Part shown: positions 3,719 through 8,196 of the stretch, piece after piece | Numbering within the stretch: position 1 is the first letter of the stretch | How the letters are laid out: every line of letters starts with the position of its first letter | Virus record (IMG/VR): IMGVR_UViG_2703718820_000012 | Location: 1-10,489 of that record | Strand: one strand, 5' to 3' | DNA length: 10,489 bases | DNA from: a virus | Lineage: Duplodnaviria > Heunggongvirae > Uroviricota > Caudoviricetes | The notes under the pieces: generated by a model | Told to the model about the DNA's origin: nothing | What the model saw: only the letters and a program-made list of their open reading frames with translations | Databases searched by the model: none | Program-made: the position numbers and the translations under genes

Positions 3719-4933
3719 ATGTATATGTCGGTTTTTCATAACTGGCTGCTTGATATCGCAAGCGGGAATTACTTTATCTACATCAAACGCCTTTCTGCAA
3801 ACGACACAGGCGCAACAGGTGGCCATCAGGTCGGACTTTATATCCCCTCAAATATCGTTGAAAAGCTTTTTCCATCAATCAATCATACTCGCGAACTGAA
3901 CCCTTCAGTCTTCCTTACTGCGCATGTATCATCCCATGATTGCCCTGATACCCAAGCACGCGCAATTTATTACAACAACCGTTATTTTGGTAAGACCCGA
4001 AACGAAAAAAGAATTACGCGCTGGGGGAGAGGAAGTCCATTACAGAACCCTGAAAATACAGGAGCCCTCACAATTCTTGCTTTCAGGTTAAACGAACAGA
4101 ACACTGACTGTTCCGAGGTAGATATATGGGTCTGCGTCAATCCCGATGAAGAGGATATCATCGAGTCTGCTATTGGCGAAATCATACCTGGAACCCTAAT
4201 TTCCGGCCCTGCCGGACAAATTTTGGGCGGATTGTCTCTTCAGCAAACTCCAGTAAATCATAAATATGTTATTCCTGAAGACTGGAAGAAGCGTTTTCCT
4301 TCTGGAAACGAAATTATTCAATATGCTGCTGGCCATTATGCTAAAAACTCCAAGGATCCAGATGAGCAACTGATTGACCGTCGGCGTGTCGAGTATGATA
4401 TTTTTCTACTCGTCGAGGAATTACATGTTCTTGATATTATTAAGAAAGGATTCGATTCTGTAGATGAGTTTATTGCATTAGCCAACTCTGTCAGTAATCG
4501 ACGTAAATCAAGGGCAGGCAAATCACTTGAACTTCACCTAGAGAAGCTTTTTATCGAGCACGGACTACGGCATTTCTCCACTCAGGCAGTTACTGAAGGT
4601 AATAAAAAACCAGATTTCCTGTTTCCTTCAGCAGAGGCATATCATAACGTTGAATTTCCTGTAGAAAACTTACGTATGCTGGCAGTAAAGACCACCTGCA
4701 AAGATCGCTGGCGTCAGATACTGAATGAAGCAGATAAAATCCATCAGGTACATTTATTTACACTGCAAGAAGGTGTTTCTTCAGCACAATACCGAGAAAT
4801 GAAAGATGCGGGTGTCAGACTCGTTGTACCATCAACTTTACATAAAAAATACCCAGAAGCAGTTAGAGAAGAATTAATAACGCTCGGAGCATTCATTACT
4901 GAGCTGATAGAGCTTTACGCTGAACTATCATAG
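3719..4933 (+). CDS. ecoRIIR: Type IIE restriction endonuclease, EcoRII family (CCWGG)
   Basis: 404-aa ORF whose N-terminus (M-Y-MSVFHNWLLDIASGNYFIYIKRLSANDTGATGGHQVGLYIP…) I recognise as EcoRII; the length matches my recollection of R.EcoRII. It is convergent with a Dcm-like methyltransferase, as in the EcoRII system. Start ambiguity: ATG 3719 has a poorly spaced SD, ATG 3725 has AAGGGA at 5 nt. Confidence 0.85.
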   Translation: MYMSVFHNWLLDIASGNYFIYIKRLSANDTGATGGHQVGLYIPSNIVEKLFPSINHTRELNPSVFLTAHVSSHDCPDTQARAIYYNNRYFGKTRNEKRITRWGRGSPLQNPENTGALTILAFRLNEQNTDCSEVDIWVCVNPDEEDIIESAIGEIIPGTLISGPAGQILGGLSLQQTPVNHKYVIPEDWKKRFPSGNEIIQYAAGHYAKNSKDPDEQLIDRRRVEYDIFLLVEELHVLDIIKKGFDSVDEFIALANSVSNRRKSRAGKSLELHLEKLFIEHGLRHFSTQAVTEGNKKPDFLFPSAEAYHNVEFPVENLRMLAVKTTCKDRWRQILNEADKIHQVHLFTLQEGVSSAQYREMKDAGVRLVVPSTLHKKYPEAVREELITLGAFITELIELYAELS

Positions 4934-4938
4934 GCTGA

Positions 4939-4961
4939 CTCCCGGCTTAAAAGGCCGGGAG
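4939..4961. terminator. Inter-convergent hairpin, possible bidirectional terminator between R and M genes
   Basis: CTCCCGGC (4939-4946) / GCCGGGAG (4954-4961) perfect 8-bp stem with 7-nt loop, inside the 34-bp gap between the two stop codons. No clear T-tract. Confidence 0.4.
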
Positions 4962-4967
4962 ATGTTC

Positions 4968-6401
4968 TCAAGGCTGCCCAGTCTTACCAGCATCAGCAGA
5001 AACAGCTTTGAGGATATAGGGTTCCAGAAGTCTGGCAACAGCTTCAAATACTGGCACCACAACTGAGTTACCGAACTGCCGATATGACTGAGTATCTGAA
5101 ACCGGAATACGGAATGGTTTCCCTCCAGGTTTTTCAAATCCCATAAGGCGTGCACACTCTCGGGGAGTCAGCCTGCGTGGTCGACGAGCCTGATTACTCT
5201 CATTCATAAAGTCAGCCTCTCCCGTTGCCATATCCCAACCACGATCAATAAGAATTTCTGATCCGTCTTTGTGATATCTGGCAGAAAGTGTGCGTGCAAT
5301 GCTTTCCTTATTCTCAGGATTGACCAACCCAAAGCCAAAACCATTCCCCTTGGCTGCATGCTTTTTGGCGTAGTTATAAAGGTACTCCCATAGTTTTGGC
5401 GTAAGTATATATTTACTGTCGACTACAGGCTCCAGCAATTCACCAAATGATGGGCGGTGTTCCGGATAAAAACGACTGATATCACGCAAGGTAAACCCCT
5501 TGTGAATATTCAGATCTCGTCTAAATCCGACCAGAACAATGCGTTCACGATGCTGAGGCAAAAAATGCTTCCCATCGATAATCTTTGGATCGTTTTTTCC
5601 CATTTCTGCAGCATCGGCAACTTCGTAGCCCAGCTCGTCAAGGGTCTCCATAATCACTTTGAAAGTTTTACCCTTATCATGGCTCTTCAGATTTTTGACA
5701 TTTTCCAGCACAAAAATTGCCGGTTTTTTTGCTCGTATAATACGTGCCACGTCAAAAAAAAGTGTTCCTTGTGCTTCACATTCAAAACCATGCGCACGAC
5801 CAAGTGAGTTTTTCTTACTAACACCAGCAAGGCTAAATGGCTGGCACGGGAACCCCGCAAGAAGCACATCATGATCCGGCACATGCTCATCAATATATGC
5901 ATAAGCATCCGTTTCCAATACATCGGTTTTATCACTCAGCGTGACTTCCCGAATATCGAGATTGAATTTATGCACCTGTTCATCGTTAAACCAGTTGGCT
6001 TTGTATGTACGCACAGCATCTTTATTCCATTCACTGGTAAAAACACACTGGCCTCCAATGGCCTCAAAACCTTTCCGTATCCCTCCAATTCCAGCAAATA
6101 AGTCAATGAAGCGGAAAGCATATTCCGGATGGTTTGCAGGTGGTTCTGGTAGCATCTTACGCAGAAGAGACTCTTCTACTGAAGTCAACGATTTTGGTAA
6201 ACACTTGCCATTAATCCAGCGGTTAATGGTTTCACGGCTCCACTCATTTTTTCCGACTTTTCTCAGTAATTCAGCCACATACTTCTGATCATAGATTTCC
6301 AGCACTTTCTCGATAAGCTTTTTATCATTTTCCTGTCGCAGCTTTTCTTCCGCCTCGGCTTCCTTCAGCAGATGCTGTGCCAACACTTCAAATTCAGACA
6401 T
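4968..6401 (-). CDS. ecoRIIM: DNA (cytosine-5)-methyltransferase, M.EcoRII/Dcm family
   Basis: C5-MTase motifs: [32 protein letters not shown]-terminal [10 protein letters not shown]; strongly collinear with E. coli Dcm as I recall it. Start placed at the Met 15 codon (ATG at 6399-6401, GGAGG RBS with 4-nt spacer), giving 477 aa; the track's 491-aa start at 6443 has no RBS. Confidence 0.85.
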
Positions 6402-6807
6402 AATTCCTCCAAGGGGTCTAATGGGTGAAACTTTATCACTCATTCAACCCAGAAGGAAATGTTTTATCTGGATATTTAAACAGTGACTACAACGTAATCT
6501 AGCACTGGTGATGCTTTGTTAGGCATAGAGAATCATTCTATATACGACTAATGACAGAAAAACAGCAGACAAGTAGTTTGTTCATAAATTAACGCATACT
6601 ATGTGTCTACGGTTTTCGAGACCGGTCCAATCATCAAACGAAACATAAAATTAGCTCACATTATGAGGAAAAGTATCTTTTTTGTACTATGTAAATTCAA
6701 AGGCTTAGCCTCATTTCTCCGATGGTTTTCTCAACACTACTGGTTGTGAGCCCTTGCAATGATCATTAATATACGTCTCACAAATAATTCTTCATAGATA
6801 TTGCAAA

Positions 6808-7581
6808 ATGGATATTACTGAGTTTCCTTCTGGAGTAATTGAACACCTTGGCTGGTATGTATACCGATTGATTGATCCGAGGGACGGAAGCACCTTCTAT
6901 GTAGGGAAAGGCAAAGGTAACCGCGTATTTGCCCATATGCGCGGTGAAGTGGCAGCGACTGATGATGACGAGTTACTGAGCAACAAGCTAAAGCAAATTA
7001 GAGAAATAAGGTTAGCAGGACTTGAAGTTATCCATGTCATCCATCGACACGGAATGACTGATGAAAAGACGGCGTACGAAGTTGAAGCTGCACTTATTGA
7101 TGCCTACCCTGGGTTAACGAATATCATGAATGGTGCTGGCAGCAATGAATTCGGCGCCGCGCATGTCAAAGAGTTGATAGCAACATATCAACCCGAAACC
7201 ATAATATTTCATCATAAAGCATTAATGATTTCCGTTAACAGAAGTGCAAAGGATTCAGAGCTTTATGATGCGGTTCGATTTAGCTGGCGCATTAATGTCT
7301 CTCGCGCCAGCCAAGCAGAAGTCATTCTTGCTACTGTAAGGGGAATCGTTCGAGGGGTTTTCATTGCTGATAAATGGCTCAAATCAACACGTGAAAATTT
7401 CCCTACGATGAAATACTGGGACGAGGATCCTGACTTTGAGGCAACACAAAGTTCTCGCTATGGTTTTGAAGGTCGAGAAGCCCAACCTGAAATAGCAAAT
7501 CTTTATCTTGGAAAAAAAATACCAGATGAATTAAGAAAAAAAGGAGCTATGTCCCCGGTCCGTTACTCACCTAATTTTTGA
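6808..7581 (+). CDS. GIY-YIG nuclease-domain protein with uncharacterised C-terminal domain
   Basis: N-terminal [29 protein letters not shown] fits the GIY…YIG…R…H pattern, followed by a conserved Glu ([11 protein letters not shown]) and Asn (GLTNIMNG). The C-terminal ~150 aa has no motif I can assign. No obvious SD before ATG 6808. Confidence 0.7.
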
Positions 7582-7603
7582 GTCTTTAAGTGATAAGCAT
7601 AAA

Positions 7604-7642
7604 CCGCAGCACGATCTTCTTCCATACGACGTGCTACGGTTT
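7604..7642. terminator. Possible bidirectional terminator hairpin between convergent GIY-YIG and invertase genes
   Basis: CCGCAGCACG (7604-7613) / CGTGCTACGG (7630-7639), one mismatch, 16-nt loop, AAA upstream and TTT downstream. The long loop makes this weak. Confidence 0.3.
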
Positions 7643-8196
7643 CATTTATCTCCGACCGGAAACTTCTTATACAGTGTCGATATACCAACATCATAGATGA
7701 TCGCCACCTTCTGGCGAGGAACGCCTGATGCAATTAATCGCCCGGCCTGCGCCCATTGTTCTGGTGTAAGTTTGGGACGACGTCCACCAATTCGTCCCTG
7801 TGCGCGAGCAGCTTCCAGTCCAGCTTTTGTTCGTTCAACAATCAGTTCTCGTTCCATTTCAGCCAGGGCACCCATCACATGAAAGAAAAAACGCCCCATC
7901 GGTGTGCTGGTATCAATAGCATCCGTCAGACTGCGAAAATTAACGCCACGTTCGCGCAACTCCTCAACCAGAATGACCAGATGCCGCATACTACGCCCCA
8001 GCCGATCCAGCTTCCAGACAACCAGAGTGTCACCTGCCGATAATGTCCTGAGCAGTTTTTTCAGTCCCGGCCTTTCGGACTTTGTACCGCTTATCTTGTC
8101 TTCAAAAATCAGCTCGCATCCTGCACAGTTCAGCGCATTACGTTGTAGATCTGTGTTCTGGTCATTTGTTGATACGCGTACATAGCCAATAAGCAT
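7642..8196 (-). CDS. Serine-recombinase DNA invertase, Pin/Gin/Cin/Hin family
   Basis: From the internal Met: MLIGYVRVSTNDQNTDLQRNAL…GDTLVVWKLDRLGRSM…MGRFFFHVMGALAEMERELIVERT…GRIGGRRPKLT…, the catalytic Ser region and C-terminal HTH typical of Gin/Pin. Start set at ATG 8194-8196 (185 aa); the 12-codon upstream extension in the track is not supported. Confidence 0.85.
   Translation of the reverse strand: MLIGYVRVSTNDQNTDLQRNALNCAGCELIFEDKISGTKSERPGLKKLLRTLSAGDTLVVWKLDRLGRSMRHLVILVEELRERGVNFRSLTDAIDTSTPMGRFFFHVMGALAEMERELIVERTKAGLEAARAQGRIGGRRPKLTPEQWAQAGRLIASGVPRQKVAIIYDVGISTLYKKFPVGDK

What the first reader, a model, noticed from the sequence alone, without database searches (positions are those of the whole stretch)
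3719..8196. Defence genes occupy the slot between the invertase and the P4-type replicon, analogous to mcrA beside pinE in e14
Established: in E. coli K-12 e14 the restriction gene mcrA lies immediately next to pinE at the prophage end. Seen: here the equivalent position next to the invertase holds a GIY-YIG gene and EcoRII R-M, then crr, the cargo cassette and the primase. Inference: this is a variable defence-cargo position at a prophage end or prophage-satellite junction, which raises the prior that the unassigned genes (GIY-YIG, HAD/dUTPase-fold pair) are defence-related.
Basis: inference. Interest (0 to 1): 0.5.

Follow-up and report, generated by a model that had tools for sequence, protein, structure and literature searches.

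The report
Restriction genes at a satellite–prophage junction
Two unrelated mobile elements, a P4-like satellite and an e14-like prophage, sit head-to-tail at the tmRNA gene, and the restriction genes between their landmark genes lie in the prophage's swappable end region, which is an ordinary, already described kind of defence hotspot.

Summary
The gene content is as described. It comprises an EcoRII-type restriction-modification pair (3719-6443), a GIY-YIG gene (6808-7581) and a Pin invertase (7642-8196). To the left lie P4-type crr iterons, a HAD/dUTPase-fold cassette and the end of an alpha primase.

The interval is not one slot. A degenerate copy of the ssrA (tmRNA) 3' end at 3472-3491 separates two independent elements integrated in tandem:
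- **Left:** the right end of a P4-like satellite. It occurs alone at ssrA in strain DETEC-P793.
- **Right:** the att-proximal arm of an e14-family prophage. It occurs alone at ssrA in strain M37H, bracketed by exact att repeats.

The whole interval 3719-8196 therefore belongs to the prophage. It is the ortholog of e14's mcrA position, and its cargo does turn over. Other strains carry McrA, RnlAB, CMoRE alone, EcoRII alone, or orphan genes.

The "unassigned" GIY-YIG gene is already characterised. It is PD-T4-3/CMoRE, a type IV enzyme that cuts 5hmC/glucosyl-hmC DNA.

The HAD/dUTPase-fold pair sits in the known minor primase–att hotspot of P4-like satellites. It recurs as a conserved pair in defence contexts in distant bacteria. 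It is an untested candidate defence system.

Overall this is an ordinary feature of a known kind.

The parts
1..688 (+). 3' end of the P4 alpha-type primase-helicase gene of a P4-like satellite. The gene runs off the left edge of the window.
   Evidence: Pox_D5 domain, E=4e-17. Window 1-3642 is 99.6% identical to the right end of the satellite in DETEC-P793, where the full 2334-nt primase gene is annotated.
602..778 (+). Left copy of a roughly 180-bp direct repeat that brackets the cargo cassette. It covers the alpha 3' end, its terminator and the first iteron pair.
   Evidence: Direct-repeat families D2 and D3 pair 602-690 with 2908-2996 (87%) and 731-778 with 3032-3079 (85%).
1186..1872 (+). 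HAD-IB (phosphoserine-phosphatase-like) hydrolase, the first gene of the satellite cargo pair.
   Evidence: Pfam Hydrolase/HAD and NCBIfam HAD-SF-IB. The catalytic motifs DMEGT and GDGxND are invariant across six orthologues. GC is 30-35% against 56-60% in alpha.
1840..2673 (-). dCTP-deaminase/dUTPase-fold protein with a C-terminal hydrophobic helix (probable transmembrane segment) and a coiled coil. It is the second, convergent gene of the cargo pair.
   Evidence: Weak Pfam DCD and dUTPase hits. AlphaFold model with pLDDT 80. Best PDB matches are dCTP deaminase-dUTPase 2QLP and dUTPase 8Y1W, E about 1e-7. Asp100 is invariant, and Leu occupies the position I align, from memory, with the deaminase Glu.
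2881..3093 (+). Remnant of a second, diverged alpha 3' end (pseudogene). It forms the right copy of the repeat bracketing the cassette.
   Evidence: The ORF translation resembles the alpha C-terminus. It is annotated as a partial poxvirus D5-like pseudogene in DETEC-P793. Repeats are listed.
3039..3332 (.). P4-type crr (cis replication region), made of two 115-nt repeats carrying GGTGAACA/TGTTCACC iterons.
   Evidence: In 1,043 E. coli genomes this region follows alpha directly, without the cassette.
3472..3491 (+). attR of the satellite, a degenerate copy of the ssrA (tmRNA) 3' end (TTCAAACTCCGCCAGCCCA). It is the boundary between the two elements.
   Evidence: Alignment with the ssrA 3' end of M37H and with the identical junction in ETEC1717. 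The same junction carries three more bases (CCA) in DETEC-P793.
3492..3648 (+). Conserved ssrA 3' trailer ending in a terminator hairpin (3618-3641). It is the fixed left edge of the prophage's variable region.
   Evidence: It follows the ssrA core in every locus examined, at 91-99% identity, whatever lies beyond it. Terminator scan.
3719..4933 (+). EcoRII-type (type IIE) restriction endonuclease. RefSeq annotates the start at the position equivalent to 3725.
   Evidence: REase_II, E=1.9e-234; 1NA6, residues 1-403.
4968..6443 (-). EcoRII/Dcm-type C5 cytosine methyltransferase. RefSeq annotates the start at the position equivalent to 6401.
6808..7581 (+). PD-T4-3/CMoRE, a type IV GIY-YIG endonuclease specific for 5hmC and glucosyl-5hmC DNA.
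   Evidence: PADLOC PD-T4-3, E=1.1e-139, full length. It aligns over all 257 residues with E. coli O157:H7 CMoRE structure 9U75, E=3e-170, with only about seven substitutions in the printed alignment. Biochemistry is in PMC12923530.
7642..8196 (-). Pin-family serine DNA invertase, the pinE orthologue.
   Evidence: phrog_125 DNA invertase, E=2e-97. 92.8% DNA identity to K-12 e14 pinE.
8258..9800 (.). Invertible tail-fibre P segment holding alternative fibre tips and tail-fibre assembly genes, flanked by 68-nt inverted repeats.
   Evidence: Inverted repeats 8258-8325 and 9733-9800. The e14 crossover sequence TTGGTTTGGGAGAAGG, as given in PMC12529663, occurs with one mismatch at 8263-8278 (+) and 9780-9795 (-).
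9422..10489 (-). Fusion ORF joining the baseplate V (Mu gp45) N-terminus to the constant part of the tail fibre. It is the scar of a roughly 2.1-kb deletion of the gp46, J/gp47 and ymfQ genes, so the prophage is defective here.
   Evidence: Pfam Phage_Mu_Gp45. Window 9734-10022 matches M37H locus L002 18628-18916, and 10021-10465 matches L002 21044-21488.

Best explanation
The window spans the junction of two independent mobile elements integrated in tandem at the 3' end of the tmRNA gene ssrA.

**Left element, to about 3491.** This is the right end of a P4-like satellite. It comprises the alpha primase, an inserted HAD plus dUTPase-fold cargo pair, crr, and attR.

**Right element, from 3492.** This is the att-proximal accessory arm of a now defective e14-family lambdoid prophage with a Mu-type tail. 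In order it holds:
- an ssrA trailer with its terminator;
- an EcoRII-type restriction-modification pair;
- the type IV enzyme CMoRE/PD-T4-3;
- the Pin invertase with its invertible tail-fibre segment.

The interval 3719-8196 is therefore prophage cargo. It sits between att and the last late genes. This is the same position that holds mcrA in e14 (checked here). From memory it also corresponds to com-mom in Mu, seen here only in a Mu-like prophage, and to the b region in lambda.

**How it works (inferred).** The cargo genes are lysogen-expressed morons that protect the host, and so the prophage, from superinfection. EcoRII would cut unmethylated CCWGG DNA while its methylase protects the host. 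CMoRE cuts the hmC and glucosyl-hmC DNA of T-even phages that escape EcoRII. Published assays show that CMoRE neither binds nor cuts 5mC DNA, so the two systems are compatible and complementary.

**Turnover (inferred).** Cargo is exchanged module by module, by recombination at conserved flanks. The breakpoints seen are 3648, about 6594-6624, and 7640.
For: **Two elements**
- M37H has ssrA, then the trailer, EcoRII R-M, CMoRE, pinE, a Mu-type tail, a head module, a lambdoid early region and int, with no satellite.
- The exact 25-nt ssrA 3' end occurs at both ends of this element, roughly 40 kb apart.
- DETEC-P793 has ssrA, then int, psu, delta, sid, alpha, HAD, DCD, crr and att, followed directly by chromosomal glaH, with no prophage. 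It is 99.6% identical to window 1-3642.
- ETEC1717 and four other top hits carry both elements in tandem, with the same junction sequence as the window.

**Cargo turnover between att and the invertase or tail fibre**
- EcoRII plus CMoRE together (241 genomes).
- EcoRII plus an alpha/beta hydrolase.
- BRO-N, HTH-ImmA and CMoRE.
- RnlAB.
- Three orphan genes; other orphans.
- CMoRE alone in the O157:H7 prophage remnant at thrW.
- McrA in e14.
- A Com regulator plus an unannotated gene in the mom position in a Mu-like prophage.

**Counts among 5,426 genomes**
- CMoRE is in 838.
- CMoRE is contiguous with pin in 565.
- Some match to the CMoRE-pin query, mostly pin alone, is in 3,336.
- This EcoRII allele is in about 263 records at 99% or more, plus about 150 plasmid copies at about 80%.

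**Gene identities and literature**
- Identities rest.
- CMoRE specificity for 5hmC/5ghmC and not 5mC is from PMC12923530.
- The tmRNA locus is E. coli defence hotspot #9 and hosts prophages and P4-like satellites (PMC10121019).
Against: - Expression of the cargo genes from the lysogen, and protection by this particular EcoRII allele, were not tested. CCWGG specificity is inferred from about 90% identity to EcoRII.
- The window does not contain the far end of the prophage. Att-delimitation therefore rests on a 99.4%-identical relative, M37H.
- The 157-bp trailer also follows the satellite in DETEC-P793, where no prophage is present. Whether it is phage-borne or ancestral chromosome is unresolved, so the prophage's exact left boundary lies somewhere in 3492-3648.
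- The loci were sampled from ranked BLAST lists, not at random. The share of defence genes in the slot is illustrative, not a statistic.
- Half of the alternative cargo genes tested have no recognisable domain.
Confidence: 0.85

Rival explanations
1. One variable defence-cargo slot lies between the invertase and the P4-type replicon, inside a single composite element, so everything from the primase to the invertase is cargo of one island.
For: The genes are physically contiguous in the window and in five other genomes. Both sides carry accessory genes.
Against: - An att copy lies inside the interval.
- The satellite occurs alone.
- The prophage occurs alone, with its own att repeats.
- The tandem form was seen in only 5 of the 241 genomes that carry the R-M/CMoRE block.
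- Base composition and module breakpoints differ on the two sides.
Confidence: 0.04
2. EcoRII R-M and CMoRE form a small chromosomal defence islet resident at the ssrA hotspot. It is not part of any prophage, and different prophages merely land beside it.
For: - The same trailer and the same R-M block precede two different prophage types at ssrA, one with a Mu-type tail and one with a lambda-type side tail fibre.
- The trailer is also present where there is no prophage.
Against: - In M37H the block lies inside the exact att repeats.
- CMoRE travels with pin and the tail-fibre genes to other chromosomal sites, such as thrW in O157:H7 and a corA-side IS1-flanked locus.
- The orthologous gene mcrA is part of the excisable e14 element. 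This is established knowledge for K-12, where strains cured of e14 are McrA-negative, and was not tested here.
- Sharing between prophage types is equally explained by recombination in the conserved trailer and tail-fibre flanks.
Confidence: 0.08
3. The invertase itself creates the slot. Pin-type recombination sites recruit or shuffle neighbouring cargo, so defence genes accumulate beside invertases for a mechanistic reason.
For: Recombinases are often seen next to defence genes, and one study reports that Pin-family invertases contribute to anti-T2 defence by inverting the e14 P segment (PMC12529663).
Against: - P2-like prophages carry a related invertase between the tail-fibre and sheath genes, with no cargo beside it.
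- CMoRE and the R-M pair also occur beside tail-fibre genes where the invertase is absent or a pseudogene.
- The only Pin crossover sites in the window flank the tail-fibre segment, not the cargo.
Confidence: 0.03

Closest known systems
mcrA beside pinE at the icd-proximal end of cryptic prophage e14 (E. coli K-12)
   Same: - Same phage family: pin is 92.8% identical, with the same invertible P segment, the same crossover sequence and ymf gene homologues.
- Same position: between att and the invertase.
- Same class of occupant: a type IV modification-dependent endonuclease active against T-even DNA.
   Different: - Integration is at ssrA instead of icd.
- The occupant is CMoRE (GIY-YIG) rather than McrA (which I recall as an HNH nuclease), plus an added type II R-M pair.
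- A P4-like satellite is integrated in front of the prophage.
[quoted passage not shown] 2022, PMC9122126; NAR 2026, PMC13586616)
   Same: - Conserved flanking genes with strain-variable, largely defensive content carried by temperate elements.
- The satellite's HAD/DCD cassette lies in the reported minor P4 hotspot between the primase and an att site, which holds 7% of P4 defence systems.
   Different: The 3719-8196 block is in neither a P2 nor a P4 hotspot. It lies in an e14-type lambdoid prophage, a family those studies did not catalogue.
E. coli defence-island hotspot #9 at the tmRNA locus (Hochhauser et al. 2023, PMC10121019)
   Same: The same chromosomal site. It is described as occupied by prophages of several groups, P4-like satellites and other elements that carry defence systems.
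   Different: That work describes the site, not the internal cargo position of each element.
PD-T4-3/CMoRE (Vassallo et al. 2022 as cited; Liu et al. 2026, PMC12923530)
   Same: Full-length match to the family model. Only about seven substitutions against the crystallised O157:H7 protein, which is itself encoded beside pinE (WP_000355475.1).
   Different: Nothing substantive; this is another allele of the same protein. The paper search found no mention of a prophage or genomic context.
EcoRII restriction-modification system (plasmid-borne prototype; structure 1NA6)
   Same: Same two-domain endonuclease, same Dcm-type methylase, convergent gene arrangement.
   Different: This is a prophage-borne chromosomal allele. 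It is about 90% identical in protein and about 80% in DNA to the copies on plasmids.
'Hydrolase + 3TM' anti-T7 system of P4 hotspots (Rousset et al. 2022)
   Same: A HAD-superfamily hydrolase paired with a predicted membrane protein, carried by a P4-like satellite.
   Different: - The HAD subfamily differs: HAD_2-type there, HAD-IB here.
- The partner there is a small multi-TM protein with no dUTPase-fold domain.
- No PADLOC model matched the pair beyond one weak hit.
- The hotspot differs: psu-int there, primase-att here.

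Membership tests
EcoRII-type (type IIE) restriction-modification system | Endonuclease with an N-terminal effector DNA-binding domain and a C-terminal catalytic domain | tested here: met
   EcoRII-N (E=3.9e-61) and EcoRII-C (E=2.4e-71). Residues 1-403 align to 1NA6.
EcoRII-type (type IIE) restriction-modification system | Adjacent cognate C5 cytosine methyltransferase of the Dcm/M.EcoRII type | tested here: met
   DNA_methylase plus DNA_meth_N. NCBIfam NF007772, 927 bits against a cut-off of 710. The gene is convergent and 34 bp from the endonuclease gene.
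EcoRII-type (type IIE) restriction-modification system | CCWGG specificity and a requirement for two sites for cleavage | not testable with these tools
   Inferred only, from about 90% identity to EcoRII.
PD-T4-3/CMoRE type IV endonuclease | Full-length match to the single-gene PD-T4-3 family | tested here: met
   PADLOC PDLC04031, E=1.1e-139, residues 1-256 against profile positions 1-255 of 256.
PD-T4-3/CMoRE type IV endonuclease | N-terminal GIYxY-YIG nuclease domain plus C-terminal modification-sensing domain | tested here: met
   All 257 residues align to 9U75 with only about seven substitutions. The sequence reads WYVYR...FYVGKG. Domain description is in PMC12923530.
PD-T4-3/CMoRE type IV endonuclease | Cleaves 5hmC/5ghmC DNA but not C or 5mC DNA, and protects against T-even phages | not testable with these tools
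   Shown for the O157:H7 and APEC O1 proteins in PMC12923530. Assumed for this allele.
P4-like phage satellite | Alpha primase-helicase followed by a crr with TGTTCACC-type iterons | tested here: met
P4-like phage satellite | Core genes int, psu, delta, sid and alpA | tested here: inconclusive
   These lie outside the window. int, psu, an Ogr/Delta zinc-finger gene and an HTH regulator are annotated in DETEC-P793, whose satellite is 99.6% identical over window 1-3642. The sid position there holds a hypothetical protein.
P4-like phage satellite | Integration at the 3' end of a tRNA or tmRNA gene, with an att repeat at the far end | tested here: met
   Degenerate ssrA 3' copy at 3472-3491. The intact ssrA lies next to int in L001 and L009.
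e14-family prophage | pinE-type invertase with an invertible tail-fibre P segment and the e14 crossover sequence | tested here: met
e14-family prophage | Integration at icd | tested here: not met
   This lineage is integrated at ssrA. Relatives at icd do exist. It is filed as an e14 relative, not as e14.
Prophage-encoded defence hotspot (in the sense of the P2/P4 hotspots) | Conserved flanks with different gene sets in different strains | tested here: met
   About a dozen distinct gene sets lie between att and the invertase or tail fibre in about 15 sampled loci. Breakpoints are at 3648, about 6600 and 7640.
Prophage-encoded defence hotspot (in the sense of the P2/P4 hotspots) | Occupants are predominantly anti-phage systems | tested here: inconclusive
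   Recognised occupants are EcoRII R-M, CMoRE, McrA, RnlAB and a Com regulator beside an unannotated gene in the mom position. An AAA_15 OLD/Gabija-like ATPase lies just outside the ssrA-like copy in FT130. Seven other tested proteins have no PADLOC or Pfam hit, and an alpha/beta hydrolase has no PADLOC hit. Sampling was not random.
Rousset 'Hydrolase + 3TM' system (for the HAD/dUTPase-fold pair) | HAD_2-type hydrolase with a small multi-TM partner | tested here: not met
   No PADLOC hit apart from a weak PDC-S34 match, E=2.8e-4. Here the HAD is of the IB type. The partner has a DCD/dUTPase fold followed by one hydrophobic helix and a coiled coil. The published system is described.

The most novel reading that the evidence does not exclude
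The convergent pair at 1186-2673 may be an undescribed two-gene anti-phage system. It comprises a HAD-IB phosphatase and a predicted membrane-anchored protein with a dUTPase fold. The dUTPase-type Asp is kept, and Leu sits where I place the dCTP-deaminase Glu.

**Context.** The pair is conserved as a unit down to 34% identity (the dUTPase-fold partner) and 56% (the HAD partner). In all six contexts sampled it sits where defence cargo sits:
- the P4 primase-att slot in E. coli and Citrobacter;
- the cI-int hotspot of a K139-like Vibrio cholerae prophage, beside a LlaJI R-M system;
- an Idiomarina island, between GmrSD, NgoMIV R-M and BrxR;
- a small integrative element in E. coli;
- the icd att site in Morganella.

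**Speculative mechanism.** The two enzymes could destroy a deoxynucleotide in two steps: dNTP to dNMP by the dUTPase-fold enzyme, then dNMP to nucleoside by the HAD phosphatase. The substrate might be phage-specific. The membrane and coiled-coil tail might act as the sensor or the effector.
Probability: 0.45. Interest if true: 0.55.

Novelty: new member of a known kind. Interest (0 to 1): 0.27.

Why it matters
For annotation, the result gives the element boundaries in this window and names the "unassigned" GIY-YIG gene as CMoRE, a type IV restriction enzyme.

For biology, it adds the e14 family's att-to-tail-fibre arm to the list of prophage positions where defence genes are swapped. This is the same kind of hotspot as those of P2 and P4, and it lies at the already known tmRNA hotspot of E. 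coli.

Its practical use is as a hunting ground. Several occupants of the slot are orphans with no recognisable domain. The satellite's HAD/dUTPase-fold pair is a well-conserved, testable candidate system. None of this overturns current understanding.

Tried and rejected
- **tRNA scan and Rfam scan of the window.** Nothing was found. The ssrA fragment is too short to score, so the att site was found by alignment to complete genomes instead.
- **Whole-window search.** No complete E. coli genome holds 80% or more of the window. The exact combination of satellite with cassette plus deleted prophage is not in that collection.
- **Phage collection.** No sequenced phage carries the EcoRII/CMoRE block. 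Only invertase matches were found, and the best of them (ON470584) is a prophage-region record that includes host genes.
- **The HAD pair as Rousset's validated 'Hydrolase + 3TM' system.** Rejected.
- **The dUTPase-domain system highlighted by DefensePredictor.** It has a different architecture: MazG-C kinase, dUTPase and aGPT-Pplase.
- **Supplements of the 2026 NAR P2/P4 paper.** They are not held, so I could not check whether the pair is listed there.
- **Is the ssrA trailer native chromosome or phage-borne?** M37H has no second copy in the 33 kb fetched beyond its prophage, yet DETEC-P793 has one without a prophage. This is unresolved.
- **The invertase as the cause of the slot.** Rejected on the basis of P2-like prophages and invertase-less loci.

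Full report
**1. What is in the window**

Six-frame ORFs and Pfam give this layout.

| Coordinates | Strand | Feature |
|---|---|---|
| 1-688 | + | C-terminus of a P4 alpha-type primase (Pox_D5) |
| 1186-1872 | + | HAD hydrolase |
| 1840-2673 | - | dCTP-deaminase/dUTPase-fold protein, convergent with the HAD gene |
| 2881-3093 | + | remnant of a second alpha 3' end |
| 3719-4933 | + | EcoRII-type endonuclease (EcoRII-N plus EcoRII-C) |
| 4968-6443 | - | Dcm/EcoRII-type m5C methylase |
| 6808-7581 | + | 257-aa GIY-YIG protein |
| 7642-8196 | - | Pin-type invertase |
| 8258-9800 | . | invertible tail-fibre segment |
| 9422-10489 | - | fusion ORF that starts with a Mu gp45-type baseplate domain |

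- GGTGAACA-type iterons are over-represented: 21 matches against 8.1 expected, and no shuffle of 200 reaches 21.
- The iterons cluster in two 115-nt repeats 179 bp apart, at 3039-3332. This is the architecture of the P4 crr.

**2. The interval contains an attachment site**

- A search of 5,426 complete E. coli genomes found no genome with the whole window. Many genomes share 3472/3488-10465.
- In strain M37H that shared block starts inside the last 23 nt of the tmRNA gene ssrA.
- The window reads TTCAAACTCCGCCAGCCCA-ATCATG at 3472-3497. Intact ssrA reads TTCAACTCCCGCCAGCTCCACCA-ATCATG. The junction is identical in strain ETEC1717.
- So a degenerate ssrA 3' end lies between crr and the EcoRII gene.

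**3. Two independent elements**

- *Prophage alone (M37H).* The order is ssrA, a 157-bp trailer with a terminator hairpin, EcoRII R-M, the GIY-YIG gene, pinE, a Mu-type baseplate and tail, a head module, a lambdoid early region with ymfK/ymfT/ymfL homologues, and int. The exact 25-nt ssrA 3' end recurs about 2 kb beyond int, next to the integrase of a further island. The prophage is therefore att-delimited, roughly 40 kb long, and includes the restriction genes.
- *Satellite alone (DETEC-P793).* The order is ssrA, int, a hotspot gene, psu, delta, sid, alpha, HAD, DCD, the alpha remnant, crr and att, followed directly by chromosomal glaH. No prophage is present. This locus is 99.6% identical to window 1-3642.
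- *Both in tandem.* ETEC1717 and four other top hits, including AR_0013, have the satellite in front of the prophage.
- The window is this tandem arrangement. The satellite ends at about 3491, and everything in 3719-8196 is prophage DNA.
- The tmRNA locus is a published integration and defence hotspot (#9) that hosts prophages and P4-like satellites (PMC10121019).

**4. The slot is orthologous to e14's mcrA position, and its cargo turns over**

- The window's pin gene is 92.8% identical to K-12 pinE.
- The e14 crossover sequence flanks the invertible segment, at 8263-8278 and 9780-9795.
- In K-12 the order is icd fragment, mcrA, pinE. An undecayed relative at icd shows the same order.

Loci sampled from ranked BLAST lists show the following between att and the invertase or tail-fibre genes.

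| Cargo | Strain or context |
|---|---|
| EcoRII R-M plus CMoRE | 241 genomes |
| EcoRII R-M plus a small ferredoxin and an alpha/beta hydrolase | HS13-1 |
| BRO-N, HTH-ImmA, two small ORFs, CMoRE | 99RCEF |
| RnlB-RnlA | Esc6 |
| three orphan genes | Ec-042 |
| a 502-aa orphan; an OLD/Gabija-like AAA_15 ATPase lies beyond the ssrA-like copy | FT130 |
| CMoRE alone | O157:H7 remnant at thrW |
| CMoRE with no invertase | PSS-07 |
| other orphans | Rb-50, B1S11 |
| EcoRII R-M, CMoRE, then an acyltransferase replacing part of pin | AR_0013 |
| a Com regulator plus an unannotated gene in the mom position | Mu-like prophage |

Counts among the 5,426 genomes:

| Feature | Count |
|---|---|
| CMoRE gene | 838 genomes |
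| CMoRE contiguous with pin | 565 genomes |
| any match to the CMoRE-pin query (mostly pin alone) | 3,336 genomes |
| this EcoRII allele at 99% identity or more | about 263 records |
| plasmid EcoRII copies at about 80% identity | about 150 |

- The breakpoints shared between loci fall at 3648 (just after the terminator), 6594-6624 and 7640. The R-M pair and CMoRE are therefore separate modules.
- P2-like prophages have a related invertase between the tail-fibre and sheath genes, with nothing beside it.
- The slot is thus defined by the end of the late operon next to att, not by the invertase.

**5. Gene identities**

- *GIY-YIG protein.* It matches the PADLOC PD-T4-3 model over its full length, E=1.1e-139. 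It aligns over all 257 residues with PDB 9U75, with only about seven substitutions.
  - 9U75 is the E. coli O157:H7 protein WP_000355475.1, renamed CMoRE. That protein is encoded beside pinE in O157:H7.
  - Published work shows that CMoRE binds and cleaves 5hmC and glucosyl-5hmC DNA but not C or 5mC DNA. It blocks T4 and T4(hmC) but not T4(C) (PMC12923530).
  - Its activity in a native host is reported in bioRxiv 10.1101/2024.12.20.629700.
- *Endonuclease.* It aligns with EcoRII (1NA6) over residues 1-403, E=3e-243, about 90% identical.

**6. How the block most likely works**

- Shown: the gene identities, the position inside an att-delimited prophage in a 99.4%-identical relative, and the module-wise variation.
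- Inferred: the genes are expressed in the lysogen.
- Inferred: EcoRII restricts unmodified CCWGG-bearing DNA, and CMoRE restricts the hypermodified T-even DNA that evades EcoRII.
- From the published specificity, the two are compatible, because the 5mC made by the methylase is not a CMoRE substrate.
- Inferred: cargo is exchanged by recombination at the conserved trailer and at the pin or tail-fibre flanks.
- The parallel with e14 goes beyond position. Both McrA and CMoRE are type IV modification-dependent nucleases directed at T-even DNA.

**7. The satellite's cargo cassette**

- The HAD/DCD pair lies in a low-GC insert, 30-35% against 56-60% in alpha.
- The insert is bracketed by a roughly 180-bp direct repeat of the alpha 3' end and first iteron.
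- It is present in only 3 of 5,426 genomes. In 1,043 genomes alpha is followed directly by crr.
- This position is the minor "primase to att" defence hotspot reported for P4-like satellites, which holds 7% of their systems (PMC13586616).
- PADLOC has no model for the pair. It is not the validated "Hydrolase + 3TM" system.
- The DCD-like protein has 114 homologue clusters in Enterobacterales, Vibrionaceae and beyond.
- In all six contexts examined it is paired convergently with the same HAD:
  - after P4 alpha in E. coli and in Citrobacter;
  - in a small int/AlpA/Rep element in E. coli;
  - between cI and int of a K139-like V. cholerae prophage, beside a LlaJI R-M system, which is the Vibrionaceae hotspot of Rousset et al.;
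  - next to icd in Morganella;
  - in an Idiomarina island with GmrSD, NgoMIV R-M and BrxR.
- The AlphaFold model has pLDDT 80. Its N-domain has the dCTP-deaminase/dUTPase fold, followed by long helices that include one hydrophobic helix (a probable transmembrane segment, read from the sequence) and a coiled coil.
- The dUTPase-type Asp100 is invariant. Leu occupies the position that I align, from memory of the family motifs, with the deaminase catalytic Glu.
- The HAD catalytic motifs are invariant.
- Guilt by association is strong. A defence function and a nucleotide-depletion mechanism remain untested.

**8. Comparison with what is known, and verdict**

- Every gene in 3719-8196 is a member of a characterised family.
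- The site is a published hotspot.
- Prophage- and satellite-borne defence hotspots are an established concept (PMC9122126, PMC13586616).
- My literature searches found no explicit catalogue of the e14-family att-to-tail-fibre arm as such a hotspot. This is absence in the held library only.
- I therefore rate the finding as a new member of a known kind, with low to moderate interest.
It is right about a variable defence position at a prophage–satellite junction and about the e14 parallel. It is wrong that one slot spans from the invertase to the P4 replicon, and wrong that the GIY-YIG gene is unassigned.

Noticed in passing
window 9422-10489, breakpoint near 10021/10022: The prophage is defective here. 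About 2.1 kb carrying the gp46, J/gp47 and ymfQ genes is deleted relative to M37H. The deletion fuses the baseplate V N-terminus in frame to the constant part of the tail fibre. The defence genes and pin are nevertheless intact.
   Followed up: partly
window 8258-8325 and 9733-9800; core sites 8263-8278 and 9780-9795: 68-nt inverted repeats (84% complementary) carry the e14 P-segment crossover sequence with one mismatch. They flank a 1.5-kb invertible segment holding alternative fibre tips and two tail-fibre assembly genes.
   Followed up: partly
window 602-778 and 2908-3079: The HAD/DCD cassette is bracketed by a diverged direct repeat (85-87%) of the alpha 3' end, its terminator and the first iteron pair. 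This suggests acquisition by recombination with another P4-like satellite that carried a different alpha allele.
   Followed up: partly
window 3488-3491 compared with L009 15782-15805: The att copy in the window and in ETEC1717 lacks three bases (CCA) that are present at the same junction in DETEC-P793.
   Followed up: no
window 3492-3648: A 157-bp trailer with a strong terminator hairpin follows the ssrA 3' core at about 89-99% identity in thousands of E. coli genomes, whichever element is integrated there, K-12 included. Whether it is ancestral chromosome or is carried in each element's attP was not resolved.
   Followed up: partly
L014 5316-6727 (M37H prophage): A Kiwa system (KwaA/KwaB) sits between the Q antiterminator and the holin of the same prophage. 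This is a second defence position in the element.
   Followed up: no
L014 17299-19187 (M37H) and L028 35567-37278 (ON470584): The other prophage end also carries cargo between int and att. In M37H it is a trio of a hypothetical, a STAS-like protein and a hypothetical; the two hypotheticals have no PADLOC or Pfam hits. In the icd-integrated relative it is a DUF262 protein plus a hypothetical.
   Followed up: partly
L028 (ON470584.1, 'Escherichia phage vB_EcoM-689R6, partial genome'): This record in the phage collection includes host genes such as icd, a pseudouridine synthase gene, mnmA and hflD. It is therefore a prophage-region sequence rather than a packaged genome.
   Followed up: no
L018 8632-12763, L026 1085-2632 and 8590-10578: In Vibrio cholerae and in Idiomarina the DCD-TM/HAD pair lies directly beside R-M systems that contain m5C methyltransferases. 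In the window it is about 1 kb from an m5C R-M system of a different element. This may be coincidence, because R-M systems are the commonest defence cargo.
   Followed up: no
L001 2791-5666 (ETEC1717 satellite): The main psu-int hotspot of the tandem satellite in ETEC1717 holds a SIR2-family protein plus an ATP-binding protein. In DETEC-P793 the same position holds a single 294-aa hypothetical protein.
   Followed up: no
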